64,000 nucleotides of DNA, from contig MNCI01001065.1 of NCBI GenBank assembly GCA_015680685.1, forward strand, positions 683,728-747,727, in the 5' to 3' direction. Numbering within the stretch: position 1 is the stretch's first letter; each line of letters begins with the position of its first letter. Under the pieces are notes generated by a model. It was not told where the DNA came from and did not search any database. It worked only from the letters and a program-made list of their open reading frames with translations. A program made the position numbers and the translations under genes. This stretch comes from Gnetum montanum (lineage: Eukaryota; Plantae; Gnetophyta). Below are positions 25,013 to 62,750 of this stretch, piece by piece.

Positions 25013-28000
25013 TTCAATTTGCAAATGGACACAACTTTACTCACACCCCTAGCCCTAACAGGTCCATACAGGGAAACTATTAGACAACTCAACCTTGCAC
25101 TGATAGAAACTAATGCTTCCCTTTGTGACACAACCATAGCAACATCAAAAATATCACCAGACTAGCCAGAACATTTGGCCTGAACCCTAGACTTGGAAGC
25201 TAGTGATGTGACCGAGGATCCCCTTACTGAGGTCCCTATAATTACGCACAAAGGGGAAAACAAAACTCTGAAGCTTAGTTCTCTCCTTGACCAATAAACG
25301 CAGAGCGACATACTTCAAGTGCTCCAAAATAACATTGCAGTATTCACCTAGTTATACGAAGACATGCCGACTTTAGACCCGAGACTAATACAGCACAACA
25401 TAGTTTTAGACCCACATATCAAAGCAGTTAAATAGAAAGCATTAAATATTAAGCCTAAAATCGTGCTGGTAGTGTGTGATGAAATCACTAAGCTATATCA
25501 GGCTGGTTTCATTCAAGTGGTCGATTATTCAGACTGGGTGTCAAATATCGTAGTTGTCTCTAAGAAAATAGGAGGAATACACATCTGTATAAACATCCAT
25601 GATATGAACAAAGCAACGATTAAAGACAACTTCCCATTACCAAGTATCAACCAACTTATCGATACAACAGCTGGCCACGCGTTACTATCCTTATGGATGG
25701 GTTTTCGGACTATAATCAAATTTCCATCAACCCAGAACATCAACTAATTACAAATTTCATGACCCCCTGGGGAACTTTTTGTTACACCATGATGCCTTTC
25801 AGGTTAAAACACGCTGGAGCAACTTATCAACGTGCCATGACATACATCTTTAGTGATTACCTCTAAGAGAGATTGAACGACTACGTAGACGACATAGCTA
25901 TCAAATCTAAGAAGTCGAAAGATCACCCAAAAGACCTAGAGTTAATCCTTAAACAATGTCTCAGGCACGACCTATGGCTCAACCCAAGAAAATGTGTATT
26001 CGGAGTCAAAACCAAATGCATGTTGAGGTTTGTTGTGTCGGGGGCTGGCATACAAGTCGACCCCGACAAGGTTAAAGCCATCGTTAACCTAGCACCACCT
26101 ACAAACCTCAAAGAACTATGTGGGTTGCAGGGTAGGTTGCAATTTATCATGCAGTTCATCTCAAAGTTAATAGACAAATTACGTCCTATGCAGCATCTAC
26201 TTAAGAAAGGAGTTAACTTCGAATGGACTGAAGATTGCTAGCGTGCGTTTGACGACCTGAAGAAAGAGCTATTACATTTGCCAACAAAGGGATCAACCTT
26301 TCTACATTTATCTGGAAAGCTTAGATGTGTCTATAGCTGTGTTGTTGTGCCAAAAAAGGGATGATGGGTTAGAAGTCCCTATCTATTATCTAATTCACGC
26401 TCTATTTGTGTACGAAACAAGGTACAATGAATTAGAGCGTAACTTTTTGGAATTGGTGTTTGCATTAAAAAAATGTAGACACTATCTTTTCTGTAGCCAA
26501 GTCAACATAGTTTGCAAGAATAACATTCTGCAGGCCATCACAAACAACTTATACGAGAGCAGGAGTATAGCCTACTGGAAGGTCATCCCAGTGGAATTTG
26601 ACTTGCACTACGTCAACCAATCATCCACAAAAGGCCAGGCCATAGCCGACCAGCTTGTAACATCACCTGTTAATGATCAAGCTACAATAGAGCCCAAGTT
26701 TCCTGATGAACAGATACATAGTTTAATCCCTGTACCGACAGGACTCGAAGCAATGTTATATTTCAATGGAGCTTCAAGTACTAGAGGCGGTAGTGCTACC
26801 ACCGTCATTACGCTCTCCCCTGAAGATGTTCGCCCATTGGCTTACCGCCTGGTGTTTCCTTATACGAACAATGTGGCAGAGTATGAGGGGCTCCTCAGGG
26901 GATTGTTGACAGCCAGGGAACTCAACATTCAACACCTGGTAATCTGAGGTGATTCGATGCTCATCATCAATCAAATCATAGGAGACAACGCCTACAAAGC
27001 TGTGCATCTGCAATCCTATTGTGATATGGCTAAAGATCTCCTAAGATAATTCACAACAACTAACATCCAACACATGTCACATAATGATAACACTGTAGCC
27101 GATGCACTAGCCACACTAGCTTTAAACATGCCACCACATTTGTTTGCCACCTAGCCTGCTTTAATGACAGAATGTACAAACCTTGTCATTCAAGCAACAC
27201 AAATCTCTTCTCTAAGCACAGGAGGAATGCCAGAATGGTATGATAACATTAAGACCTACCTTCTACATGGTGAACCACCGCACGAGTTAACACCTGCACA
27301 AAAAGATGTAGTCTGGAAGCATGCCAGGCAATACGTCATCATCGGAGACAATACTCTATGTAGACACTCTTTTGATGGAGTATTTCTAACTTGCGTTAAT
27401 AATGAACAAGCACAAAGAATAGTTAGCAAATTCCATGAAGGACTATGTGGAGGACACATAGCCCCGCTAGCCATGGTTGCTAAAATCAGGTGCTTAGGGT
27501 ATTACTGGCTGTACATGGAACGAGACTGCCTTACCAAGGTTAAGACATGTGATACATGCCAATGTTACACAAATTTAATACATGTGTCACCAACTGAATT
27601 GCATACTACACAGATCACTTGGCCATTCCAACGATGGGGACTAGACATCATAGGCCTCATCATGCCTAAGTCTTCCGCAGGACATAGCTTCATTATCACC
27701 ACCACCGAGTATTTCATGAAGTGGGTCAAGGCTATTCCCCTACGAAAGATTACATCTCAATAGGTTTTCCATTTTATCTTGGACAATATAGTAACCAGGT
27801 TTGGGCTTCCCATGACTATTGTGACTAACAATGGGCCACAATTTAGTAGTACCGAAACCAAATATTTCTACAGTAACCTTGGTATTAAGAAATCTTTTTC
27901 CTTACCCTATTACCCACAAGAAAATGGTCAAGCAAAGGCAACAAACAAGGTGATCATCAATTTACTAAAAAATATGTTCAGTAGCAACAAAAAAAGATGG

Positions 28001-45480: not shown

Positions 45481-45995
45481 TAGATATAAATGAGCCAAGC
45501 AACATTGAAACAATATAACATATATTAAAGTGAAAATTCCATATCTTTTGCCTAAAGTACATAAACTTATTTAGAGTGCTACATTTTATTGAATAAATAG
45601 CATATCTACTTGTCTTTTTTTAAATTCTTCTTAGAGATCTTATGTATCTCTCTCCTTTATTTGTATGCTTATAGTCCTAAAAACATATATTCAAACATCA
45701 TTGATAAATGAATAAACAATTATTTTGAATTTTATGTATTTTAGTAGGTTTGTTGAAGCTTATTATTAATCAAAGTAAACCTAATTATATCTTAGATGGT
45801 ATGAAATTTTAATTTTTAGGATTGGCATTATAAATATGCAAAGAAATGTCATTTGAAAAATGGGATTTACATTTTGAACTTGAACTCATGAAGGATATGA
45901 AGAAATATCATAAGAATAGCATAACGCATTGGTATCTAGTGGAGGAAAAACATAAACAAAACATACAACTCAGAGTGAACGCAGCAACAGGAGTG

Positions 45996-47408
45996 ATGAA
46001 CGCAGCAACAAGAGTGACGGCAAGGGCGAAGGTTGCGACGGCTGGTGGGGAGGCAGGAACGGAGGCAGGGGCGAAGGCTGCAACGGCTGGTGAGGAGGCA
46101 GGAACGGAGGCAGGGGTGACGGCAGGACTGGAAATGATAGGGGGGGCGGGGCAGACGGAGGGAGACTTGGGGGAATGCTGCAGAGATGGAACAACGTGGA
46201 GGATTAAAGTATGTAGACCAGCCGCTGACACACTCGCCAGATTGGAACGTAGCCTGATCGGCAAATTCGTGTCAGAAGGAGCACGACCCCGCCTCGACCT
46301 GATCCGCCGCTGGGCCCGAAATACATGGGGGCTAGACTCGGTGAAGGTTACCTCCCTGGCGGACGACCGCCTCCTCTTCTGTTTTGCGTCTAAGGAGGAG
46401 CGTGAACAAATCCTGGTGGGGGGCCCTTGGTTCTACGGGGCACACGGACTGGCGCTGGCGGCCTGGCGCCCCGGAGCTCACAGAGACCTGGGCCTGTTTG
46501 AGCGTGCACCGGTGTGGTTTCGGCTGTATGGCCTTCCCCTCAAATACTGGTCACCAGTGTTCCTGCGGTCGTTGGCTGATCTGTTCGGCGAGTTCATCAG
46601 GTTTGATCACAACACAGAAGCTATGGACCATCTGGGATTCGTTCGGTTCTGCGTCTGGCGACCTCTCCTACCGAAGGAGCCTGTTGAGGCGCTGGTTCTC
46701 ATCATGGACCATGCCGAAGAGCGGATCCGCATTCTGGTTGAAAACCAGCCATTGCCCCAGAGCCGGCAGAGGGATGCGCGGGCAGGGGGTGACCTGGGTC
46801 ACCCAGAAGACCCCAAGGTCGCTCCAGAGGACGGGTGGAGGTTGGTTGGCAGAAAGGGCCGCGCTGTTAACAGAAAACCATCGGCCCCCAGAACAGGGGC
46901 CCAACGCCCGCGAAAGGGACCCTCTGTGCAGGGAGAGATCTCGAAGCCCAGCAGGGGGCAGCTTACTAGGCCGGGGGGGCTGGTGGAGACGGCAACACGG
47001 ACCGCGGTCGCAGAGCCAGGAAAGTCCTATATGCACGCTCTGGTTGGGGAAACTCTGAATTCCGCCGATGGCCAAACGACGCACACGCCGACAGAGACAG
47101 AATAGTGGGAAGGACCCCACGGAACGCACAGGACACCTAGGTCGAAGGGGGCAGGCCCTTCCCATAGCGGACTGTCTCCGCCACCGGTCACGGACTGGAT
47201 AAATACCAGTCGGGGTTCGGCAAGGCCCAGCTCCCCTCCCGCTGCGAAGGGGAGCCTGCAAAATCAAGGAATGACAGTGGCCCCTCTCCCTGCAAAGGCT
47301 GGACGTCCTGACTCCCACGCCCGTCGACATAAGGTTACACAGCTCTTCGTTGATCTGGGCATCCAGCCCACGCTCCAGGAGGTATTCCAGCGCTCTTGTT
47401 CTCCATGA
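45996..47408 (+). pseudogene. LINE ORF1 (DUF4283/RRM-type), one premature TAG at 47103; true start uncertain
   Basis: LIGKF..IRRWARNTW..GGPWF..APVWFRLYGLPLKYW. The frame stays open after the TAG until TGA at 47406-47408. Confidence 0.85.
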
Positions 47409-50400
47409 AAGTCCTCTCCTGGAACTGCAGGGGCCAGGGTACCCCGTACAAATGCCATACCCTGCGTTGCTTAGTGCGAGATGAGAAGTGTGACATTATT
47501 TGCCTGCAGGAAACAAAACTCCAGCAGTAGGAGGCTCAGACGCTCCTTTGGCCCGGGTGGCACAGCCACCTGGTGCCCAGCAGGGGACGTGCGGGCGGCC
47601 TCGCGGTCCTCACCCAGATGGACTCGTACGTGTTAGATTTGTCTGATTGGTGCATTACGGTTCACCTACCCGGCCCAGACGTGTGGGTGACAAATGTCTA
47701 CGGAGCACAAGAGTGGCAGGCTCGCCTCCATGAGCTCTCGCGGGTCGCGGGGTTGGTTCCCAACAAAGCCAACTGGCTGCTGATCGGCGATTTCAACCAG
47801 CGACTTTTCAGCTGGGAAAAGACCGGTGCTAATTTGGCGGACCCTCTTGGGGCACCCGAAATGCTCACGCTGCTGCAACAGTCAGGCTTGACGGACATGG
47901 AAATCGCCAGCTGCATGTAGACCTGGAGCAACCGCAGGCAGGGCACCACGAGGGTCCAGTCCCGTATTGACCGGGTGTGGGCCAGCCGAAAAATTCTAAA
48001 TGATTGGGGTATTCACGTTTATGGGGGTGCTCGCATGGCCTCAGATCACCGGCCCATTTTCTGCCAGCTGGAGAGGGGCGATTTCCAGCGCCCCCCCCNN
48101 NNNNNNNNNNNNNNNNNNNNNNNNNNNNNNNNNNNNNNNNNNNNNNNNNNNNNNNNNNNNNNNNNNNNNNTGGCGAAACTACAACGCCTCGGTGGACCCA
48201 CATGAATTTTTGAAGAATGGGTTGAAAAAACTAAAAATGCAAATTAAAAAAATCGGCTCTGCACAGAAATACAGTTTCAGAACCGGCCGCAGCCAGATCC
48301 AGAATAAATTGCAAAATATTCAGGCGATGCAGGAGCACGGGGCAGACCACGCTGGGGAGGAACTCGCCTTGCAGGCCGAGCTGCAGCTTCTGCACCTTGA
48401 GGAAGAGGAGTACTGGCGCCAACGGGGCCGTGTGCAGTGGCTCCAGGCGGGGGATCGGCATACTAAATTCTTCTTTTCTGCAGCAAAGGAGCACCGCGGC
48501 GCCCGCCATGGCTCGTTGCAACGCCTTTTACAGGGCGATCTGCACTCCGGCGCCAACAACATCCTGAACTACTGGCAGCAGGTCTGGGAGTGGCAGCCAA
48601 CGGAACCGATTTCGGCTCCTGCAAAATACTTGACCAAACGGATAATTTCCGGCTCCTGCAACCTTTTTCACGCCAGGAACTCCATGATGCGCTCCAAAAC
48701 ATGCCGGCTGACAAGGCGCCTGGTCCCGATGGCTGGCCCATTGAGCTGTTCCAGGTTTTCGAGGGCATTCTCGGGACTAACCTGCTGGACGCTTTCAACC
48801 ACATGCTGGCATGGCTTCAGATCCGCAGAGAGATTAATTGCTCACGTGTGGTTTTGCTGCCAAAAACAGAAAATCCCACTTCCCCTGGCCATTTCCGCCC
48901 CATTGGCGTCTGTAACTGCCTGCTGCGGCTGTTTTCTTGCCTGCTCGTGGCCAGGCTGCGTCCTCTCATGACGCGCCTCGTGGGTACACAACAGGCTGCC
49001 TTTCTGAAAGGGCGTCATCTCCAGGATCAGGTTCTCCTGCTCCAAGAAATTCAGCACTCCCTACGTGCGGCCAGATTACCAGGCCTTTACATCAAGTTGG
49101 ACATCGCTAAGGCCTACGATTCCGTCAGTTGGGCCACCCTGCGATCTGTGCTGCACGCTAAAGGCTTTGACAGAGCCTTTATTGACCTCTGCCTGCAGAT
49201 CCAACAAAGGGGGCGGTATTCTTTGGACATTGATGGGTAGTTATGGGGCTTCCATCGAACTGGGCGCGGGCTTCGCCAGGGAGACCGTCTCTCGCCCCTG
49301 CTCTTTCTGATGCTGATGGACCTCCTGCACATGTATTGCAGGGAGGAAGTGGTCCAGGGGTTAAACGTTTACGGCATCCCGTGCATTTCGGGTGGTACCG
49401 CAGGCCAAGGCAATCCTGAAGGCGCTAGATCGGATGCGCTAGGAGGTGGGCCTGGCACCCAACCCCGAAAAATCAGCCCTCTACTTTACCCACACGCATC
49501 CGTTGGTCCGCAGCAAGGTTATTCAAATCCTTGGAATTCTTCCGGGGGGGGCAGCTGACAAATATCTGGGCATTCCTATGCACAACTGGCAGCGACAGCA
49601 AACCTGGCAACCGCTTATTGAGAGAATCCAGAAACGCGTCGCGCGCTGGACAAACAATTTCCTGTCCCGCAAAGGTAAGATGGTGCTGGCGTCCGTGGTC
49701 TTAGGGGCCATGGTCAGGTTTGTTGCCTCTGTGGCCTCCCCGCCCTTGGGTGTCGCCACTAAGATTGACCAGATAATTCGCGATTTTGTTTGGTCTGGGG
49801 AAAAGGGGGAAAGCGGATGCACCTGGTTGCCTGGATGAAAATCGCTCGGCCCCGATCTGCAGGGGGGATCGGCCTCCTTCCCTTCACCCTTGAGGTGTCC
49901 CTCGGGCGTCATAGGCTCCTTCAGCGCCTGTATATCGAAAACGAGGATCCCTCCCTTTGGGCGCAAGTTATGAGAAGGAAATACAGGCCCTGGACGTCCG
50001 TCAATTCCGACTCCCACATTTGGCAGCAGCTCTGCGGGCACGCCAGATCGCTGGGCAATGCTGAAGTGCTCTCTCTCCACCCACGGCAGCTACTGCAGAA
50101 GTGGTTTCCAGCCGATCCGCGCTGGATGAAACTGTGGAGGGGCATCCTCCCGGAGAAAATAAAAGCCTTCGGGTGGCTGATCCTTCATCAGGCCCTCCCT
50201 GTTCACGTCGTCCTGCAGTCTCGAGGGCTGGATATCAATACCCAGTGCCCTCTGTGTCACCAGCAGGCAGAAACTTTGAAGCACTTCGTGCACGATTGCC
50301 CGTGACCACGCAAGTGTGGCGAATGGCCGGACTTCATACCCCTGAATTCTCCGGGAATTCGGCTACGCTGGCGGCCCTCTGAATCCTATGGCGGGCCAGG

Positions 50401-50786
50401 AATGATCACATTTTCAAGGGAGCGTCTCTCCCTTCCTGAGCGTCCTCTCTAACAGGATATGCAAGTTTTGGCAGGAAATCACCTCCGCTATGGTGCCGCT
50501 ACAATCGCAAACACAGCGGGTCTTGGAGAGACTGCGGTCTAGGACCACCCCCCACGTCGTGAACCAGAGCCCGATGCCCCAAGGGCCGAATCTGGAGGAG
50601 GAGAGGCACGAGCAACAAGGGGGGGTCACTGTTGTTCCAGGGGAACAAAGCCCGAGCTTTCCCGCGCGGGATTGGATGGAGAGCATCCCCAACAAGCGAA
50701 CGACCGGCATCGCCCAAATAATTGCAGAAAACCGGCGCCGCCGCGCTGCCGGACCCGACCAAACCAGCACTGGCAGCGGTATCTAA
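47405..50786 (+). pseudogene. LINE ORF2 (APE endonuclease, RT, zf-RVT), disrupted
   Basis: MKVLSWNCRG, LQETK, GDFN, SDHRP, KAPGPDG, FRPI, KLDIAKAYDSV, GLRQGD.LSP, YLGIP, CPLC..ETLKHF..C; stops and frameshifts. Confidence 0.92.
48099..48170. other. Assembly gap (72 N)
   Basis: Run of N directly after a C8 tract inside LINE ORF2. Confidence 0.99.
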
Positions 50787-53102
50787 TTCTCCGGCCGCTG
50801 CTGACGCGGGTTGACAGGGCGCCCGGGGTGAGGTTTCCTTGCTGCGGCTTGTTTTTCTGGTCCTTGGTGGGTGGATCGTCTTTGGGTGGTCGTGTGTCCT
50901 TGACGGGAATTTCTTGACGGGAATTTCCTGACCTGGCGTGGGGCCAGCGGCCCTGGCCCGAGCTGTACCATGTACCGCTTCTTTTTTTGATATGAAAATT
51001 CGCCCGACCTTTCTTAAAAAAAAAAAAAGAGAGATTTTCAAAATAAGCTATGGAGCATGGTTATTATTAAAAGAAATTATTCTAAAGGTAAGTGCTATGG
51101 AAGCAACTCATGGATTTATTTTTATTACAACATAAATAAAAGTAGTTTTATTGCACAAGTTAGGTATCACTTACCTTGAATTGGAAAAAAAGAACAAATT
51201 GTGGTATGTAAAAGAATGTCAAAATTTGAAGGAGAAAACCTTGTAAGATAGTTCAAACATTTTGAAAAGATGCATGTAAATAAAATCATGTGCATACAAA
51301 TGCTAATCATTTAGTATCAAACACTAGTATAGAGAAAATGTTTGATGTTTCAAATAGAAAAATGGGAATGCAATCATAGGAAGACTTTTTTATGCTTATG
51401 GCATACCTTTTAACATTGCTAAATCTCCTTATTGGAAATAAGTTGTACAAATGATAAATTTTGCTCCAAAGGGTTATGTTTTACCTAGTTATGAAAAGAT
51501 TAGAATAACTTTGTTAAGTGACGAAAAATCTTGAATGGAAGAAAATTTAAGATACATAAAGGGTTGTTTGTCTACAATAGGTATGTTTATTTTATCAGAT
51601 AGATGGAGAAATATCAATAATAAACCACTTACTAATATTCTTGCATCATATTTAAAAAGTATTATATTTATAAAGTTACATGATACCTAGGAAAATGTTA
51701 CAAATGTTGCATATTTAATGGAATTATTTCATGCGGTGATAAATATTATGGGTAAAGATAATATTCTGTAGATTATCACAGATAGTGCTTCAAATAATAT
51801 GTTGGTAAGAAAAATGATAGAGGATGAATTTTCAAGTATATTTTGGACTCCTTGTGTAACACATTACTTGAATTTATTACTTAAAGATATTATTGTAGAT
51901 GTTTAATAGATATCAGAAGTTATAAATAATGCTAAAAAAGTTCAATAGTTTATTATGAACCATTCATTTATAGTTTATTGTAGAATTTTTAATGAAATTT
52001 TATTTATTTTGATTAAATATTCTAGAACCTTTTTATGTATTAAAGGTATTAATTTAGAAAACTTTATTAGCATAGATACGTAGTAGACTAAGTAGACTTA
52101 GTACTTAAAGGCTTAAGATATAGTTCATGTCAATTCAAACATCAAGTTATTATCTTAGTCTTCTCCAACTTACAAATCAAGTCCTCATCAAATGTGGGAC
52201 TATGAAGGATCTATAGATGATAGACATGATGAGTTTCCTATAGAAGTTTTAGATTCTAATTTTGAGAAAGTGTTTGATAGTGCTAAAAATAAAAAGCACT
52301 TTTAAAAAATTGAGTATTAAGCTATTTTCATCATTAAGTAGCATACAATACATGAAATGCTATGAAGTTATTTTGTGATCTTTGTTAAAACTCTTATCAA
52401 TATTAAATAACATACAATATATGACCTTTTATAAAGTTACTCTATGATAGGTTAATAAGTGATCTCCTTTTTTCCCGGGTTAAATATAGCTCCACATTTT
52501 CTGATCAAAAATTAACATCATTAGAATAATGTGTTATATATGTTATTATGCAAATATCTTTCCTTTATTATGATAGAAAGCTTTGCATCTAATAAAATTT
52601 ATTATTAAAATTTCACTTATATTATTCCTAATTTATATAACATATTATTTTTAAATGGTTTCTTGTACGCAACCTTTCACCTTGCCATTTTCGTCACATT
52701 GTAGGTGCAAATGCTACCTCATTACCTATTTTTGTTAACTATGATTAATATTTAAAAATAAAAAAATAGACTCCTTTGATTTTTTTAAAAAATATTTCAA
52801 CGTCGTTTATGAAGTTGAAGTAGACAGAAATTTTGTTAAGTGCATCGAGTATAACAACTTAATAAAACGTTGGAACTTTTCGCACTGACTTCTATTTAAA
52901 ACTTTGAAATTTTCAGATTCAAAAATGAACTCGCAACACTAAAGCAAATACGCTCTGTAATGTAAAGTAATAAACTTGCTTGTAGTATTATTTTATCAAC
53001 TTCTTACCCAAACGCCAAAAGCCAGGGAATTGATAATTTGCACATAAAAGTGCATAACCTCTTTAATGCTCAGTTTTATAAAAAAAATACATTTACCAGA
53101 TA

Positions 53103-56100
53103 TCACTCGTATATGCATTTTACATTTAAATCAGCATTTTCCAGCTCTTGCCATCTTTGAATAAGGCGTGGACAGTTGTCGATGTAAAGGAATTGGAGTG
53201 ACTTCATGTTTGTAAGCACGTCCATCCAATTTGGCTCCAACTCAGAGCAATCATTCAGATCTAATATTTGTAGAGATGGAAGAGAGTGAAATGTTGCACC
53301 TAACCTCTTTAGATTTCTGCAGCCCCACAAGGACAGAAACTTAAGAGACACCAATCTCCCGATGTTTCCTGGAAGCTCTTCCAGGCTCTCACACATGGAA
53401 AGATTCAGTGACTGTAACAACGAAAGGTTCTCCAAGCCCAAAGGCAGTCGTACAACTTTCCTGCACCCTCCGACTGTTAATCTTTTCAATAAAACACACC
53501 CGCCAATACTCTCCGGAACTTCTCTTAATGCAATGTTACGGATTGATAAAATCTGGAGATGCGGGAGGGTATGGAGTTCATCAGGCAGCTGCACCAATTG
53601 CTCAGCGTTCCGCAAGGATAACTTTACCAAGGACTTCATATGTGATATGAGTCCTGCTGATATTTCTCTCAAATATTCTCCTCCTAAAACTAAGTACTCT
53701 ACATTTAACATCTGGGATACAGGCTCAACAATAACCAGCTTGTCGCTATCTGTTATTATGGACTCGTGTTCAAAGAGGAGGCGTAAATCCTTCAAGTTGG
53801 ATGGCAACTATGTATGTGCAGCAATTAAACAGCAGCAGCGTCAGTTAACATATATTTGAACTTTATACATGCTTAAATATTTCCAGAAACTTTGCTACGT
53901 AAATATTTGAAAGTTTGACCTGGTGTAAAAGCACGGTGCTGGTGGGCGCGTACATCAGGGTCCTCAGCTCTGGGCATTGCTTCCCATAAACAAGCGGTGG
54001 CTGCGATTTTGATGTCCCTGAATGCCAACAAAGAAGGTTGGGAAAAGCTTCCTTGCATTCACCTTCAATTTCAATGACAGTGTACCGATTATTATTTGTA
54101 GCATAATCCAGGGATAGAATTCGGAGGGAGGCGGACATGACGTCGAGCTTGTGAGATGGCAGGATCAGCTTTTCTCTGTCTTCCACCTTCTCTTGCAAAT
54201 AAATGCCTTTAATGTTGCGCAAATTCTGCAGCAGCAGCTTCAATTACGGCTATGGCTGTTACCCCACGAATACAATTTAATATTAAAGAAACGAAAAAGC
54301 AGATGATTGAAATTACATGAGAATCAGTCGACTCGAGCATAGATCGGAATTGCGAGACAGTGGCGATCCTGCTGGATTGCCCAATTCTTCGGCCCATTTC
54401 TAAGACCACGTCATGGACTTTTGCTTTTGCGTCAAAATCGTTATGTATCATCACTCCCGCGGTGTACTCCAGAGGCACTTTCTTTACGAGGGCCCTCCTT
54501 CGCAACACCTCCATGGTATGCTTTCCAAACGTGCGCTCCAGAAAACGCCAACCCCAAGGAGAAGAGGAAAAGCCGAAAGAGAAAGCGCACATGTCGAGAA
54601 AAGCATCTCGGCAGCATTGCTGCAGGCTATCAAATGCAAAAGAGAAGAATTCGATGCTCTGCCCACCAAAATGTTGCCCATCATCGTACCTGCGCTCGTC
54701 CCGAATCGCATTAAGAGCTTCTGCAACGTTATTCTCGTATCTTAAGTATCTTCCCACCATGGCTATAAGCAAAGGCATGCCTCTGCAGATGCTGAGCAAA
54801 TATTGCAAATCGTGCTGACTAATTTGCTCTACCACATCGCTACCCATTTGTTTCTTCAACAATGTCTCTGCATCTTTCTCCTCCAGCGACTCCACGCTGA
54901 AGAATTTCACGTCATTTCGATTTTTAACATCAACACCGTTGCGCACAGTTGCGTCTCGAGCAGTTAGAAGCAGCCTCAGCTTTCTTGAGCGGTCCAGGTC
55001 AGATGGTAGCAGTTTGCCAAGTTCAATCCCGTCCAGGACGTTGTCGATATAAACAAAACATGGCTCCTTCTCAAAGTATTTAAGCAGAAGATTTTGACCA
55101 TCTGAGCTTGTGGATGGCTCCTCCGTTACCTGGTTTTCTGAGATTGCAGCTAAAATTTTTCGCTGTACCGCCATGGTATTGGGTTTACTTCCGGTGTTTT
55201 CGTAAAGGGCCGCCTTGGAGAATTTAAATCCTAATGCATCGTCTACCCTTGCATAGACAGCTTCAGCAAGTGTACTCTTCCCTATTCCTCCCAAGCCATG
55301 AAGAATAACAACCAGTACTTTCTTTGGACTTTCTAGTTCTAGCATTTCTACAATGCTTGTCAACGTTTCTGATTGGATCACTGAAAAATAAGGAGAATGC
55401 TTTTAGGCGAAACTACTTACTAGTAGAGAATTTCTTCACAAGGAATAACATCAGTGTTTAATATTTACGTAAAAAATAGAGTTTCCATAACTTGCCTGCA
55501 TGGTGAGGGTAAAACTCCATTCTTGGCAATTGGAGAGGTTGATTGCTATCGTATACTCTGAGAATAACGTGCAACATCAGGTGTCTGTGAGTCTTCTCAA
55601 GACGGCTTCGAATATCTTCCAACTGCCTCTTCTCTACATTTGCTCCAAAGAATCTGCAAAACCTTAAAATGTTAAGACACTACAACATCCAACTGGTTCG
55701 TTACAATCTAAAATAGGAATTAAAAAATTGAAAAAAAAAATATAATGTCACTCACTTGTACCACCAGGAAGATTTGGCTTGGCAGAGGCACACAACCGCT
55801 CCTTCAACCACCAATTGGAGGGCCTCTTCCATTAAACTTGCAATATGTTTTTTCAACGTGCGTCTTTCCTTCAGAATCTGAAGGTATTCTGCCAATCGAT
55901 ACATCTCATCTAACACATCTAGACATTCTGCATTGTTTGCGGATACCATTTCAAATCTTTCGAGAACAAAAGCAACCGCGAGCAAGCCGGCAGCAACCCA
56001 ATGGGCCTTTCCAATCCCATTTAGCACTATTTTCGCGACATCCATCACGGTAGCACTTTGCTCGTTGGATATCTGTGCGTAACTTAATTGTTAGCGGTTC

Positions 56101-59100
56101 AAATTTTTTTTTAAATAAAATTGGTTTTGCTTTTAGGATGGAAAAGGTATTGTTACTTTATCTGGATTTTAGTAAACAGGTGAAAAAAATGTGATATATA
56201 ATATAAGATCTCTGATTCCAAATTTAAAATCTTTAATAATTTTGATTTAAGAATTGAAATGAAATCACGATATAACATGATTATTTTATTTTTAAATATT
56301 TAATAATTCATTCCAAATTCCTAAAAGGTAATTTGACTGGCACAGGTACCCGTCATTGATTTTGCCAGTTTGTCAAACTGATCAAACTCTAATCCAAATT
56401 CAAAGGAAGGATTATCTTAAGAAAATGATCAATGTACCATCTATAGCTTTGCTGTTTTTAAAGCTTTTTATTTTTAAATCAGTTGCAATTGATTTGTAGT
56501 TTCAGGAAAATATTTTTAACTAAAAAAATCAATAAAAAAAAGTTTCAAAGAAGCAAAAAATAGTAAAATAAGGATATTGTAAACATAATTGAACTTGCAA
56601 CTTCTTACATAGCAATTATCTTGTAAGTAAACTTATAAAGTTGTAGAAAAGCAAAGCTAATAGAAGGACTCATAGAAAATCTAAGTTAGTAGGCAACAAG
56701 GAATTATAGACAAATTTCATAGGAGGAATTCTAAAAATGGTGTAGTTTAATAGATCCAAAAGGGTATCAATGAATATAAGTGAAAATTTGATTTTAGTAA
56801 TAACATTTAAAAATTATTAATACATGTTTAATAAAGAAAAAAATAATTAAATATCTAAAATTCAATCATTTTATATCTTTTATGTAAATCTATAAGCTCC
56901 TATTTTAAAACAAAGCTTGACTACATAGTGTAAAGGTGTTAAAAAAAAGTATATATCATAAATTCATAATACAACCAACAATTGGGATGCACATGCAACT
57001 GTTTAAAAAACACAAATATGATTCTCATAACTTTCTTAGTGATCAGCAAGAACATCTTGTAAGAATAATATGGAAAAATATATAACAAATATATAATATA
57101 CTTAGTATTGCAAAATTTCTCATTTTACCATAAAAATTAAACAAAAAAGTGCATCAACCCATCAAATTCGCACCCTATTATATCATTCTGCTTCAAAACA
57201 TATCTTGCAAGGCATCTATTACTCTAATCTCTCTGGGATTATTAAAAAAAAATATTAAAGCAAAATCATAAGATAGACAAGATGGACCTGAATGATAAGG
57301 CCCCACAAACGAGTTGTATCTAAGCTTTTAGAGAGAATAGCTATTTGAATATAGTAACAATATTAGGTAAATTTGAACTTTACAGAAGAGAAAATACTCA
57401 AAAGAGTGCTTGCAGCGTCGGCAGATTCAGAAAACATATCCTTGAATTTTACAAGATCCGTTGTATTCACAAATTTCCACTCTTTCTGCTGAGGTTTAGA
57501 ATCCTTATTGGAAGATGAAGAGTGTGATTCCTATTACCAAATCATGCATTGTGCAAACTTTGTTATTTGTAAAATATTACTAGCTCCAAAATAACATAAC
57601 AACAAGGGAAAACAACTTGCTAAATGGAATGAAAGAGAAACAAGGGAGATAAATAGGAAAGCAACTTTGCAACTTTTAAAACATTTCAAAACTACCAGGA
57701 TACTCAAAGATGTTTACAAAGACGACAACTGGGTTGCTTCCACAGCAACCTTTACACAAGACAACACATACTCTCTCAACTGACTGACCATAACCAACCC
57801 AAGATGGATTTAAATAGACGAGAGTTAAAAGAATGGAAACAACCAATAATTAACTCAAACAAATTTTCACTTTTCTTTTACAAGAGGTTTTAGAAATCTT
57901 AACTCTTTTTTAGAAAATTCTAAAACTAACAAAAGGTAGAAGAGAAAAGTGAAGTTCAACACAGGTTAACTACAAGTTGTCTTTGTATTTGTAACAATCT
58001 CCCACTTAAAAAGACAAATCACTCAGAAAAATAAACTAGAAAAACTTCATCAATCAATATGCTTTCCACAATATGCAAAAAAATCACAGGTATGCACACA
58101 ACCATTGGAAGAGCATCTCTGCATGAAGCATCCTGACCAAGCTTTCTTTAAGCCAAAACAACATGAGATAGCATTATATTAGCATTACCAAATACTATCC
58201 CAAAAAACTATAACACAAAACAAAAAAGACGTGGAGCTTAGACTCTTAACATAATAATAAGATGTCTCTTCAATAGCAACAAATCCAAAAGACAACATCA
58301 TCACATCTCAAACATAGCAATCCCTTTTTCACATGTCCAATACAGTGACAACATCATGGTCTCTTTTCTTTTTCATCTGTTTCATTACAAAAACAAAACA
58401 TCTTGACTATCTTGTACACATAAACAAAAAATAATCTGCACTGAAACAGAAAGACAATGTGCAAATAATCCAAACCAACTTATAAAAAAAATAATCTATA
58501 AAAACATAATCTGCACTCAAACAAAAAGACAATCAGCAAATAATCCAAACCACCCTATATAACCTTTTGTGCTCCACCAATGACCAGCATTGCACAACTT
58601 AACATCATTCAGCCTCGCTCCAATATCACTTGTTACCAAATTATGCATTGTGCAAACATTGTTATTCGTAAATATTACTGGCACAAACAACGTAACAACA
58701 AGGGAAAACAACTTACAAATTGGAGTGAGAGAGAAATAAGGAGATAAACAACAAAGCAACTTTGCAACTTTTATAACATCTTCAAAACTACAGAGATACC
58801 CAAAGATGTTTACAAAGACCACAGGTTAGTTGCTTCCACACAGCAACTCTTACACAAGAGATGTTTACAAAGACCACAAGTTAGTTGCTTTCACACAGCA
58901 ACCCTGAACTGAGACCACATATTCTCAATTCACTGACCATAACCAAACCAAAGTTCAAAGAATGGAAACAACCAATAATTAACTCAGAAAGATCTTTACT
59001 TTTCTTTTACAAGAAGTTTTAGAAATCTTAACTCTTATTTGAAAAATCCTAGAACTAACAAACTGTAGAAGAAGAAACTGTAGAAGAGGAAAGTAAAGTT

Positions 59101-59593
59101 CAACTAACTACAAATTTTGCCTTCATACCTCTAACAATTCCTACATTAATCCAAATGAAAGAAAAACAAAAATCTCCTCAACAAAACAATTATGCAAGGC
59201 ATTGCCAATTGTAAAACAGCAGGAGAAGTAAAATCGTAAACAGACCTTGGCATAATCCAGAAGAATTCGAGTGTAACTGATCAGGGCGCTTAAATCTCCA
59301 TCCACACCAGATTTTGAAATATCAAGGATGTTTTGACCTGCTTCATCGGCAACAACAGATGCAGAAGTTGAAGCTTGCTCTGTACTTGTATCAATGACAG
59401 CAGGGGACGTAGGAGCTGGCCCTGTTTCTGCACTTGTTTCAGTGGACGCAGAAGCTTGCCCTGCTTCTGTCCCTGCTTCAGAAGCAGAAGTAGGAGGCCA
59501 TGCCATGGCAGGATCGGTTAGGGTTTGCTGAGCTGCAACATGGCGACTGTTGAAACACCGGCAACAATCACAGATCGACCTTGCATTACCCAT
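53103..59593 (-). CDS. NLR (NB-ARC-LRR) immune receptor, ~1014 aa; exons 59593-59246, 57530-57384, 56072-55756, 55653-55496, 55380-54317, 54225-53920, 53807-53103
   Basis: P-loop GLGGIGKS, kinase-2 FVYIDNV, RNBS-B LLLTARD, GLPL-like CRGMPL, MHD-like VHD and LxxLxLxxC LRRs. All junctions are phase-consistent with no internal stops. The last five exons are secure; joining the first two is inferred. Confidence 0.85.
57532..59136 (-). mobile_element. Small non-autonomous copia-like LTR element (1.6 kb) in NLR intron 1
   Basis: LTRs at 59136-58631 and 57996-57532 (TGTTA...TAA(C/T)A); decayed Met-type PBS TGATATTGGAGC; PPT AAGTGGGAGAT at 58007-57997; perfect TSD ATTCC (57527-57531 and 59137-59141). 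Confidence 0.88.
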
Positions 59594-59728
59594 TAGGTAA
59601 CAAAGCTTTGAACAAGGGCGAAGATGATATTATCAGAGGGGCAAAGAGGCAAGAGGAAGATCCAGAACTCCCGTATATGCAGAAATGGAACATTAATGTT
59701 TCAATACATAAACACCCTGACTGAGAAT

Positions 59729-59884
59729 CCAAGGACAGCCAGAAAGCGTCAGTCAAGAAGTTCAGAACAACTTGCAGAGCAATACTTCAAAAGTTTATTC
59801 CTAAGGACAGACAGAAAGCGTCAGTCAAGGAAGCTGCTGGGAAGTTCAGAACAACGTGCAGAGCAATACTTCAAAAGTTTATTC
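59729..59884. promoter_or_regulatory. Tandemly duplicated ~72-84 bp block upstream of the NLR; each copy has an overlapping W-box and TGACG
   Basis: CGTCAGTCAA (TTGACTGACG on minus) at 59747-59756 and 59819-59828. Confidence 0.55.
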
Positions 59885-61339
59885 TTTTAAATTGCAAGTG
59901 GGAAAACTTTATCGGAAGAAATCCCTTATCCCTCGGTCTTGGAAAAAAAAAGATTCCATCCCGACCCATTAATTTTGTTTTAATTGCAAAAGATAAAGCA
60001 GCGATAATGAAATAGGCATTGCTTAATACAAACTTTTGACTTTGGCTTTCACCTTGGCTTCTTTTAGAATTTTTGGTAAGCTTCTAGATATATGCCTTGT
60101 CTTATATGTTTCCAACAGACTTGAGACAAGAACACATTGTGTTAAATACAAGATGGTAGGTTGCCGAGAAAGCAGTTTATTTTGCGTGGGATCATCTATG
60201 ACGTGATTTCAACTTTTGCCAAACAGATTTTCGCATGGCGCCGCTGGTTATTGTTCAAGGCAAAGGCCATCGGGATGGAGGATTTTCTTAAGCTGGCGCT
60301 GCTATTGCTTAACGCAAAGGCATCTGCCGAAGCCTGCGTGACTTGGAGCACATTGCTGCACTTTTACCTACAGATTTTTAATGGATTTCTAATTTTCTAC
60401 TTTGATTAGTTTGGGGAATAATGAGGAAACTTTATGGATTTTTAATTCCTTGATTAATTTTTGGATTATTGATGGAATGGCTAAATCATACTGATTTGAT
60501 TGGACTTAATTAAAACAGTAACAAACTTAGTTAATTAATAAATTAAGGTCATGTTCATGTTTAAAATGTGCCTTAGGTGTGCCATTGTCTTAAATAGGAT
60601 TGTAAAACCATTAATTTTAATCTAAAATGTGCCTTAAGTGTACAATTATCTTGAATAGGATTGTAAAACTATTAATTTTAAAGAATGTTAAAATATGCTC
60701 TAATTTAACCATGCTTTCCTTGCTAACTACACAAAGACATGATTGAGGAAGGTGCACCAAGCTTTTTGATGAAATAAAGATTACTAAGATGATGCTTACT
60801 GTTCTATGTATTCTAAGTATTCTATTAACTTATGGGTAGTTAGGGCTTGTTTATCAACACAAGTATCTACGTAGTTGTGTAAATAAAAAGTGTCCCTTGA
60901 AGTCTAATATCTTTTTGAACATGCCTCTAATTAATATGTATTCTAAATGTGGCTATTTGTCTAGTTTTCTAAAGCTTGGATTCCTTGAATGCTTTGATTT
61001 CTAAGTACTATCATGAAGCATTTTTATTATTTGAAGGCATACAGAAAGTTGGCTTAGAGTCAGACTTCGTCATTGCAACTAGCTTGGTACTTACTTACCT
61101 TGTTGTAATTAAGAATGGTATGGTATCATATATTTGTTGATGCATAAATTTTGGTCATGCCAACACCTGAAAAACTCGTTTGAGGAGACTATTGCCTAGG
61201 GCGCCTCCAGTATGGGTACGGAAACCCGGGAATAGTCTCAGCTGGAGAGAGCCATGTGACCAAGTGATAGAGAGAAAGAGAGAAAACATAAAGAGAAATA
61301 AAGCATGAAAAGAAAAACTAAAGGAGAGAGAAACATGAA

Positions 61340-61780
61340 CCATCGACAGGATGCATGGTTGTGTTGCCGCAAGAATCATGTGTAGCTGCAATCAAACATC
61401 ACCAATGCCCTGTGAACCGCCAACTGCATAAATATAAATCCACCACCACCACATGCCATTTGCTGAAATAAAAGTAGATGAAGAGAAGATCCATCGACAA
61501 GATGCATGGTTATGTTGCTGCAAAAATCATGTGTAGTTGCGATGAAACATCACCAATACCCTGCGAACCGCCAACTGCATAAATATAAATCCACCACCAC
61601 CACATGCCATTTGCTGAAATAAAAGAAGATGAAGAGAAGATCCATCGACAGGATGCATGGTTATGTTTCCACAAAAATCATGTGTAGCTGCGATCAAACA
61701 TCACCAATGCCTTGCGAACCGCCAACTGAATAAATATAAATCCACCACCACCACTTGCCATTTGCTGAAATAAAAGAAGA
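61340..61780. repeat. 151-bp tandem repeat, about 3 copies
   Basis: CCATCGAC unit starts at 61340, 61491 and 61642. Confidence 0.92.
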
Positions 61781-61805
61781 TAGAAAGAACCACATGCCAT
61801 CTGCT

Positions 61806-61938
61806 AAAAATAAAGAAAATCTGCCGACGTCCAACCGCCCAAATTGCTCAGAAAATAAAAGAAAATCTGCTGACGTCCAACTGCCCAAATTGCTCAGAAA
61901 ATAAAAGAAAATCTACCGACATCCAACCACCCAAATTG
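61806..61938. repeat. 46-bp tandem repeat, about 3 copies
   Basis: GAAAATCT..GAC.TCCAAC at 61815, 61861 and 61907. Confidence 0.88.
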
Positions 61939-62750
61939 CCCATTACTGGAATAAAAGAAAGAAAGAGAAACCATTGGCAACCACCCAGGGAGAGAGGAGG
62001 TTTACTCCATGGCTTCATGGCCCTGGCCTCATTGGGCTAGGGCTTCCTGGCCTGACTTCTCCTCTCCCTCCCCTTCACAACTCCATCACCTTGATGGCTT
62101 TTTATAGCCAATTTTAGGGTTAGGGTAACCCATCTTTTTTTTTATTTTTTACTTTTTTTATTTTTATTCTTCTTTTTTTTTTTAAAAAAATAAATAAACA
62201 AAGGCCCCATGCCCAAGCAAGCATGGGCATGTTGGTATCAACAATATCCTTTTGCAAAATTCTTTTGTAGTTATGTAAGCTATATTTGCAGACTTGATGT
62301 CTATGTAGTATTAGTAAGAAAGATTTGGTAATGATGAAAATGAACACTCAGTTAAGACACTAGATCTTTTTCATAAAATGATAAGTGTGAATGTATCTCT
62401 AGATCAGGTAACCATGTTGAATGTCCTTGAAAAATATGCCCATTCTTTAAAATCAAATGAATCTGAATTTTTTACATGATTTCAATACTAGAAACAACAG
62501 CACTCTTAGATATGTATGTGAATCATAAAAGAATAGAAAAGGCACTCAATTTATTCTCCAAAATGACTAATAAACTTTAGTTTCTTGGAATGTTAGATAT
62601 GTCCAAAGTGACCTTGTATTGAAGGCTTTAGTTATGTTTCAATGCATGCAGTTAAAACATTTTCCACTAGAATATATTACTATGGCAAGCCTTGCTTCTA
62701 CTTGTTCTTTGATGGGATTTCTTCAACAAGGTAACTCAATCCATGGTATG

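What the first reader, a model, noticed from the sequence alone, without database searches (positions are those of the whole stretch)
57527..59145. Retroelement inserted on an NLR 3' splice site and rebuilt the acceptor
Seen: the TSD (GGAAT on the gene strand) is the last G of the intron AG plus the first 4 nt of exon 2. Removing the element restores a 105-nt intron ending ..ATGTAG|GAATCAC. At the far end, the LTR-terminal A plus the TSD G form a new TAG|GAAT at exactly the original exon start (57530). At the near end, the old acceptor is followed by GAA TTG TTA GAG|GTATGA. This gives either an in-frame 12-nt micro-exon (ELLE, 59140-59129) with a good donor, or read-through to a TGA giving a ~121-aa product. 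Inference: the whole element can be spliced out without damage, and it gives the NLR up to three isoforms, possibly under chromatin control as established for COPIA-R7 in Arabidopsis RPP7.
Basis: partly seen in the sequence, partly recalled or inferred. Interest (0 to 1): 0.8.

Follow-up and report, generated by a model that had tools for sequence, protein, structure and literature searches.

The report
Old retroelement rebuilt an NLR acceptor
An old, non-coding jumping gene sits exactly on an intron end of a gymnosperm immune-receptor gene, and its own end restores the splice signal, so it is likely spliced out with the intron, while the extra regulated isoforms that were proposed have no support so far.

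Summary
The anatomy is confirmed. A 1605-bp non-autonomous LTR element (59136-57532) sits in intron 1 of a gymnosperm-type NLR. Its 5-bp TSD, GGAAT, starts on the G of the acceptor AG. The 3' LTR's last bases plus the TSD G give TAG|GAAT at 57530. Related transcripts splice exon 1 to exactly 57530 in 4 of 4 runs, and one contig shows the empty site. These are 88-97% relatives; at 97% likeness or more the few records laid showed no such joint. The rebuilt acceptor follows from geometry: any TG..CA element in this register does it. The LTRs differ by K=0.14, yet the reading frame is intact, so the gene stayed functional after the insertion. The element is most likely a tolerated intron passenger. 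No micro-exon joint was seen; LTR polyadenylation and chromatin control were not testable. Known kind of event (dog merle, maize waxy, introners). Interest 0.3.

The parts
59246..59506 (-). NLR exon 1 coding part (87 codons from the ATG at 59506; an upstream in-frame ATG at 59593 would add 29)
   Evidence: top-ranked but weak match to the family's N-terminal profile, E 0.3 among 1474 peptides
59141..59245 (-). original 105-nt host intron 1, GT..TAG; old acceptor TAG at 59143-59141
   Evidence: empty-site contig in X1
59137..59141 (-). TSD copy 1, GGAAT (last G of the intron AG plus 4 exon bases)
59129..59140 (-). hypothetical 12-nt micro-exon (ELLE) with donor-like GAG|GTATGA at 59128; TGA at 59125-59123 on read-through
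   Evidence: sequence only; no supporting joint seen
58631..59136 (-). 5' LTR, 506 bp, TG...CA
57997..58630 (-). 634-bp non-coding interior; PBS-like stretch at 58630-58617 (motif recalled, imperfect); purine tract at 58007-57997
   Evidence: the longest ORF overlapping it has no Pfam hit; no Rfam hit
57532..57996 (-). 3' LTR, 465 bp, TG...TA (the 5' LTR ends CA)
57531..57533 (-). rebuilt acceptor TAG (TA from the LTR, G from the TSD)
57527..57531 (-). TSD copy 2, GGAAT
57402..57530 (-). NLR exon 2 (43 codons, phase 0-0) as delimited by paralogue transcripts
   Evidence: weak family-profile match, E 1.7
57396..57401 (-). position of the paralogue's exon-2 donor; reads TTGAGT here, not GT. In-frame alternative GTs at 57383, 57452 and 57470
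   Evidence: (X2 loose end at 56072)
55756..56072 (-). exon 3, helical N-terminal domain shared by gymnosperm NLRs and kinases
55496..55653 (-). exon 4, followed by a GC-AG intron
   Evidence: joints
54317..55380 (-). exon 5, NB-ARC
   Evidence: PF00931 E 5.5e-20; joints
53920..54225 (-). exon 6
   Evidence: joints
53103..53807 (-). exon 7, LRR and stop codon
   Evidence: PF23598 E 4.1e-18

Best explanation
A 1605-bp non-coding LTR element sits with its 5-bp target duplication starting on the G of the intron-1 acceptor of a gymnosperm-type NLR, so the LTR end plus that G restores an acceptor at the original exon start, and the element is likely removed as part of one enlarged 1715-nt intron. 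Shown: the anatomy, the empty site in a relative, and use of 57530 as the family's exon start. Computed: every TSD register up to this one keeps AG before the exon at the far end, and the next register does not, so this is the last position at which a TG..CA element spares the exon. Inferred: the insertion survived purifying selection because this splice works, making it a tolerated passenger and not a designed switch. Use of the old acceptor or an LTR poly(A) site would lower full-length mRNA as a side effect. Inferred: after exon 2, this copy would need a cryptic in-frame donor (57383 gives an open 985-aa frame), unless the TT at 57401 is a private allele or a sequence error.
For: Joint 57529/59245 (GT..AG, 1715 nt) in 4 of 4 runs, with 24 reads from 23 starts in raw RNA run X17. 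Empty-site contig in X1. Register analysis. LTR K2P 0.138, bootstrap 0.10-0.18, while the full frame is open. Under neutral decay at the LTR rate, exons 3-7 survived in 0 of 2000 runs and exons 1+2 in 0.35% (5% at half rate, 22% at quarter rate). In X2 at 97% likeness, window-identical pieces occur in exon 1 (83 nt, depth 16) and exon 2 (48 nt, depth 19), with zero depth in all bins across the element. X1 holds a 112-nt element-interior piece with no substitutions at depth 14, below exon depth. The new acceptor's U content (0.34) lies within the range of the gene's five downstream acceptors (0.30-0.45). Most relatives (86 of 141) carry 70 or more residues before the exon-3 domain.
Against: No joint at 57530 at 97% likeness in any of 4 runs (25, 14, 6 and 47 records laid), so the joint may come wholly from insert-free paralogues. 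The new acceptor lost the host U-rich tract (0.57 down to 0.34), and the old, stronger acceptor is still in place. Thirteen pyrimidine-rich YAG sites lie inside the element. The exon-2 donor position reads TT. Exon 2 alone could stay open by chance (14-62%). X3 has a 354-nt identical LRR piece but no record at 97% on exon 1, exon 2 or the laid part of exon 3. LTR mutation and indel rates may exceed those of exons, and two of the indels fall in tandem repeats.
Confidence: 0.55

Rival explanations
1. Exon 2 is now mostly skipped. With an LTR-derived acceptor on one side and a TT donor on the other, exon 1 is joined straight to exon 3, giving an in-frame 936-aa NLR. The rebuilt acceptor kept the gene alive at first but matters little now.
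For: Exon 2 is phase 0-0 and skipping leaves the frame open. A paralogue splices at 57402, where the window has TT. Exon 2 alone does not show selection in the decay test. Retrotransposon-induced alternative splicing is reported for maize waxy (one sentence in PMC8882774; the exon-skipping detail is recalled).
Against: Window-identical exon-2 sequence is present in X2 at a depth like that of exon 1. No 59246/56072 joint was listed (the list was truncated). The +3 to +6 bases of the dead donor still match the consensus, which suggests a recent change.
Confidence: 0.2
2. This copy was functional for most of the element's life but has recently become a pseudogene or starts at the ATG near 56045. 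The loss of the exon-2 donor would be the first sign of decay.
For: TT at 57401. No near-identical junction at either end of exon 2. Near-identical records are a small minority, 49 of 7459 in X17.
Against: No stop or frameshift in about 2.9 kb of coding sequence. Pieces 99.5-100% identical occur in exons 1, 2 and 7 of runs that show spliced joints.
Confidence: 0.15
3. One reading: the element is a domesticated switch. It yields full-length, ELLE micro-exon and truncated isoforms in proportions set by chromatin, as COPIA-R7 does for RPP7.
For: Sense-oriented LTR element in intron 1 of an NLR. An in-frame, stop-free cryptic exon with a donor this good arises at only 2-4% of random start points in the element (a post hoc test). 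The donor is in the 5' LTR but not at the same place in the 3' LTR. CpG depletion (o/e 0.15) points to past methylation.
Against: No joint at 59246/59140 or 59129/57530 among 15 of 67 joints shown, nor among the 3 of 3 joints. At RPP7 the effect is polyadenylation in the 5' LTR upstream of the whole coding sequence, not acceptor choice (PMC7529245 passages). A retrotransposon in an NLR intron can have no effect on expression or function (Sr22b; PMC8882774 passages).
Confidence: 0.1

Closest known systems
Canine merle allele: SINE-Cf at the PMEL intron 10/exon 11 boundary (PMC7349775; passages read)
   Same: A retroelement inserted into a splice acceptor, flanked by a TSD, leaving an original and an alternative acceptor in competition.
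   Different: There it is a SINE in reverse orientation with a 15-bp TSD, tuned by poly(A) length and with a shown phenotype. Here it is an LTR element in sense with a 5-bp TSD that supplies only the G, and no isoform shift is shown.
Maize waxy retrotransposon alleles (Varagona, Purugganan and Wessler 1992; paper not held; seen as a title and one sentence in PMC6829137 and PMC8882774)
   Same: LTR retrotransposons in plant introns that alter splicing. That they are spliced out with the intron, cause exon skipping, and that one lies at an intron-exon junction is recalled, not read.
   Different: Those are recent mutant alleles with larger elements. Here the insertion is old and the frame has been kept.
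Introners (PMC12130899; passages read)
   Same: Transposons that encode or co-opt splice signals; about 12% of the classified examples are LTR elements, and most are non-autonomous.
   Different: Introners create new introns inside exons, in many copies. This element lengthens an existing intron and uses the host donor. Only the unobserved micro-exon route would make it an intron of its own.
COPIA-R7 in Arabidopsis RPP7 (PMC7529245; passages read)
   Same: An LTR element in intron 1 of an NLR gene.
   Different: RPP7 control works through H3K9me2/EDM2-dependent polyadenylation at the 5' LTR, upstream of the coding sequence. Here the element lies within the coding region on an acceptor, and no polyadenylation or chromatin data exist.
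Non-autonomous LTR retrotransposons, TRIM in the wide sense (PMC13570524; passages read)
   Same: Two LTRs, a TSD and a short non-coding interior.
   Different: At 1605 bp it exceeds the strict TRIM limit of 1 kb and falls in the 1.5-4 kb range that the paper calls undefined.

Membership tests
Non-autonomous LTR retrotransposon | two long direct terminal repeats | tested here: met
   506 and 465 bp, 87.5% identity over 433 columns
Non-autonomous LTR retrotransposon | TG...CA termini (feature recalled) | tested here: met
   5' LTR TG..CA; 3' LTR TG..TA, one transition away
Non-autonomous LTR retrotransposon | 4-6 bp TSD (feature recalled) | tested here: met
   GGAAT on both sides; single copy at the empty site in an X1 contig
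Non-autonomous LTR retrotransposon | primer binding site and polypurine tract | tested here: inconclusive
   purine tract before the 3' LTR; the PBS-like stretch matches a recalled tRNA-Met motif only imperfectly
Non-autonomous LTR retrotransposon | no coding capacity | tested here: met
   six frames broken by stops; the 102-aa ORF has no Pfam hit
TRIM in the strict sense | length of at most 1 kb (PMC13570524) | tested here: not met
   1605 bp
Introner | the element itself forms a new intron inside an exon | tested here: inconclusive
   the main route extends a host intron; the 59129/57530 joint was not seen, but coverage of the copy was thin
Introner | many copies forming introns across the genome | not testable with these tools
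   no genome is held for this window
RPP7/COPIA-R7-type regulation | LTR element in an NLR intron | tested here: met
RPP7/COPIA-R7-type regulation | proximal polyadenylation in the 5' LTR | tested here: inconclusive
   no pile-up of molecule ends (table 6 empty), but near-identical raw-read depth was only about 1-4
RPP7/COPIA-R7-type regulation | dependence on H3K9me2 and EDM2 | not testable with these tools
   no chromatin or mutant data
Plant NLR | NB-ARC followed by LRR in one open frame | tested here: met
   introns 3-6 confirmed by joints
MLKL-like or Cbl-N four-helix-bundle NLR | N-terminal four-helix bundle | tested here: inconclusive
   four helices predicted (pLDDT 72, pTM 0.34); MLKL_N hits in 5 of 31 relatives, best E 0.002; fold search gave generic helical bundles only, best Z 8.2, rmsd 2.7, 88 aligned

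The most novel reading that the evidence does not exclude
The element has become an intron in its own right. Its 5' LTR supplies a donor 12 nt behind the old acceptor, and its 3' end plus the TSD supplies the acceptor. A tens-of-millions-of-years-old insertion would thus have added a micro-exon and a premature-stop route that tune this gymnosperm NLR through chromatin. More generally, TG..CA termini would let LTR elements pile up at the single-base edge of splice sites across gymnosperm genomes.
Probability: 0.1. Interest if true: 0.65.

Novelty: new member of a known kind. Interest (0 to 1): 0.3.

Why it matters
The case shows clearly how the fixed CA end of an LTR element can spare a gene when it lands on a splice acceptor, and the gene has kept its frame over a long time. 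It gives a testable rule: surviving LTR insertions should be found up to the register that starts on the acceptor G and drop off one base later. If the micro-exon or LTR-terminated isoforms were real and regulated, this would extend RPP7-type transposon control of immune receptors to gymnosperms. On present evidence it is an ordinary tolerated insertion.

Tried and rejected
No genome is held for this window, so paralogous loci and other element copies could not be read as DNA. The run search listed no holder on record as RNA; this is no evidence either way. Runs X1-X3 are guessed to be RNA, but they show spliced GT-AG joints and exon-high depth. Two metagenome scans gave nothing useful: 595 pattern hits with none confirmed, and one 20-mer hit, L001, which matches the window over only 29 bases and was taken as chance. 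Word-index protein searches found only 24-29% relatives for NB-ARC and nothing for exon 3 or exon 1. The PDB sequence search gave no hit better than E 0.4, and the fold search was inconclusive and listed no MLKL chain among 50 rows. Rfam gave no hit in 56000-62000. Literature searches for an LTR-end-plus-TSD acceptor found no paper describing this exact geometry; the library lacks most subscription papers and Varagona 1992, so this is weak evidence. No supplements were read. Rejected: that the repeat pair is a chance or tandem duplication (TSD, termini, purine tract and an empty site all agree); that the NLR family normally starts at the ATG near 56045 (86 of 141 relatives have 70 or more residues upstream); that rebuilding the acceptor was an improbable coincidence.

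Full report
Observation. On the minus strand, exon 1 ends at 59246 (AAG|GT). A 105-nt intron ends ATGTAG at 59141. GGAAT lies at 59141-59137 and again at 57531-57527, and between the two copies lies a 1605-bp element. It has a 506-bp 5' LTR (TG..CA), a 634-bp interior with a PBS-like start and a purine tract, and a 465-bp 3' LTR (TG..TA). It is in sense with the gene and encodes nothing recognisable. The LTRs are 87.5% identical over 433 columns, K2P 0.138 (bootstrap 0.10-0.18). That is about 23-41 million years at the 2.2e-9 rate used for gymnosperms in PMC12122422 (passage). The date is rough, because methylated elements may mutate faster (CpG o/e 0.15). One correction: the TGA read-through product is 92 aa from the ATG at 59506 and 121 aa only from the ATG at 59593.

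The gene. NB-ARC and LRR domains are clear. Named relatives come from Cryptomeria, Ginkgo and Taxus, so this is a gymnosperm-type NLR; the species was not determined. Exon 3 is a helical domain shared with kinases and has weak MLKL_N hits in 5 of 31 relatives; its fold was not resolved. Of 141 relatives, 86 have at least 70 residues before this domain. A profile of those stretches ranks exon 1 first and exon 2 fourth among 1474 window peptides, in the right order, though each score is weak (E 0.3 and 1.7). Exons 1 and 2 are therefore likely a normal part of the protein.

Transcript evidence. At 88% likeness, 4 of 4 runs showed a joint that skips 1715 nt, GT..AG, from 59246 to 57530; raw RNA run X17 had 24 reads from 23 starts. 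One X1 contig shows the empty site with the intron retained. Introns 3-6 were confirmed as well. Most laid records were relatives, however: only 43 of 364, 26 of 194, 7 of 77 and 49 of 7459 were at least 99% alike. At 97% likeness (25, 14, 6 and 47 records; X18 replaced X17) only three joints appeared, none at exon 1/2, the micro-exon or exon 2/3. So 57530 is the family's exon start, but splicing of the element-bearing copy is not shown. There is indirect support. X2 has window-identical pieces in exon 1 and exon 2 at similar depth (16 and 19) and no depth across the element. X1 has an element-interior piece with no substitutions over 112 nt at depth 14, which suggests that this insertion or a duplicate of it is in that run. 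Against this, X3 has a 354-nt identical LRR piece and nothing at 97% on exon 1, exon 2 or the laid part of exon 3. No micro-exon joint was among the 15 of 67 joints shown, nor among its 12 of 55 rows of inserted letters.

Why the acceptor is rebuilt. LTR elements end in CA in either orientation (established knowledge). If the TSD starts on the G of the AG, the far end must read (C/T)AG before the original exon start. All registers from -7 to -1 keep AG there, and registers 0 to +3 do not. This insertion sits at -1, the last register that spares the exon, and the only one where the LTR supplies a letter. The new acceptor has lost the host's U-rich tract (0.57 down to 0.34 U), but it resembles the gene's downstream acceptors (0.30-0.45). 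The old acceptor is still present, as are 13 pyrimidine-rich YAG sites inside the element, so some mis-splicing is plausible.

Did the gene stay functional? The joined frame is open for 985 codons. In a neutral simulation at the LTR-derived rate, exons 3-7 stayed free of stops and frameshifts in 0 of 2000 runs at full, half and quarter rate. Exons 1+2 did so in 0.35%, 5% and 22%, and exon 2 alone in 14%, 37% and 62%. The gene was therefore under selection after the insertion. Exons 1+2 probably were too; exon 2 alone is not proven. Two LTR indels fall in tandem repeats, which inflates the indel rate used.

A paralogue transcript in X2 ends exon 2 at the base equivalent to 57402 (27 of 30 letters match). 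The window continues TTGAGT there, not GT. The paralogue's genomic donor was not seen; GT is inferred. This copy must use a cryptic in-frame donor (57383, 57452 or 57470), skip exon 2 in frame (936 aa), or carry a private change or a sequence error. With both ends of exon 2 altered, skipping is the main rival.

The regulated-isoform idea. The donor behind the old acceptor scores 6 of 9 against a recalled consensus. An in-frame cryptic exon of this kind arises at 2-4% of random start points in the element, and the 3' LTR lacks the donor at the same place. This keeps the idea alive but is post hoc. COPIA-R7 acts through polyadenylation at its 5' LTR under H3K9me2 and EDM2, upstream of the RPP7 coding sequence (PMC7529245 passages); none of that could be tested here. 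Sr22b shows that a retrotransposon in an NLR intron can be without effect (PMC8882774 passages).

Comparison and verdict. Retroelements on intron-exon boundaries with competing acceptors are known (merle, PMC7349775 passages; maize waxy, seen only as a citation). So is splice-site co-option by LTR-derived introners (PMC12130899 passages). An earlier, unchecked note of this scan describes a similar rebuilt acceptor for a fungal Copia element; it is a lead, not support. Four paper searches found no description of this exact geometry, in a library with large gaps. The element is a non-autonomous LTR retrotransposon, too long for a strict TRIM (PMC13570524 passages). The event is a new member of a known kind: most likely a tolerated intron passenger (0.55), with exon-2 skipping (0.2), recent decay (0.15) and a regulated switch (0.1) as rivals. 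Interest 0.3.

Noticed in passing
window 57401-57396 (-): The exon-2 donor position used by a paralogue reads TTGAGT here; possible recent donor loss, private allele or sequence error.
   Followed up: partly
window 55495-55381 (-): GC-AG intron (CAG|GCAAGT), spliced in all four runs.
   Followed up: yes
window 55756-56072 (-): Helical N-terminal domain without a firm Pfam family, shared by gymnosperm NLRs and kinases (P0012); some relatives also carry a C-terminal thioredoxin-like domain (P0010, P0021).
   Followed up: partly
window 54225-54323: Relatives show several alternative joints at the end of exon 5 (skips of 91, 93, 97 and 100 nt), pointing to variable donors or indels among paralogues.
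   Followed up: no
window 59731-59884: Direct repeat upstream of the start codon; an X3 relative lacks 72 nt of it.
   Followed up: no
window 60562-60681, 61340-61789, 61807-61939: Tandem arrays of 61, 151 and 46 bp upstream of the gene.
   Followed up: no
window 45834-51000: GC-rich stretch with a DUF4283 ORF, LINE-like (label recalled), containing an N run at 48099-48170.
   Followed up: no
window 250-41831: Degenerate LTR-retrotransposon remains: integrase at 1248, RNase H at 26261, integrase zinc finger at 27155, and long direct and inverted repeats.
   Followed up: no
window 59136-59117 versus 57996-57977: The first 20 bases of the two LTRs differ more than the rest, and only the 5' copy has the donor-like site.
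   Followed up: partly
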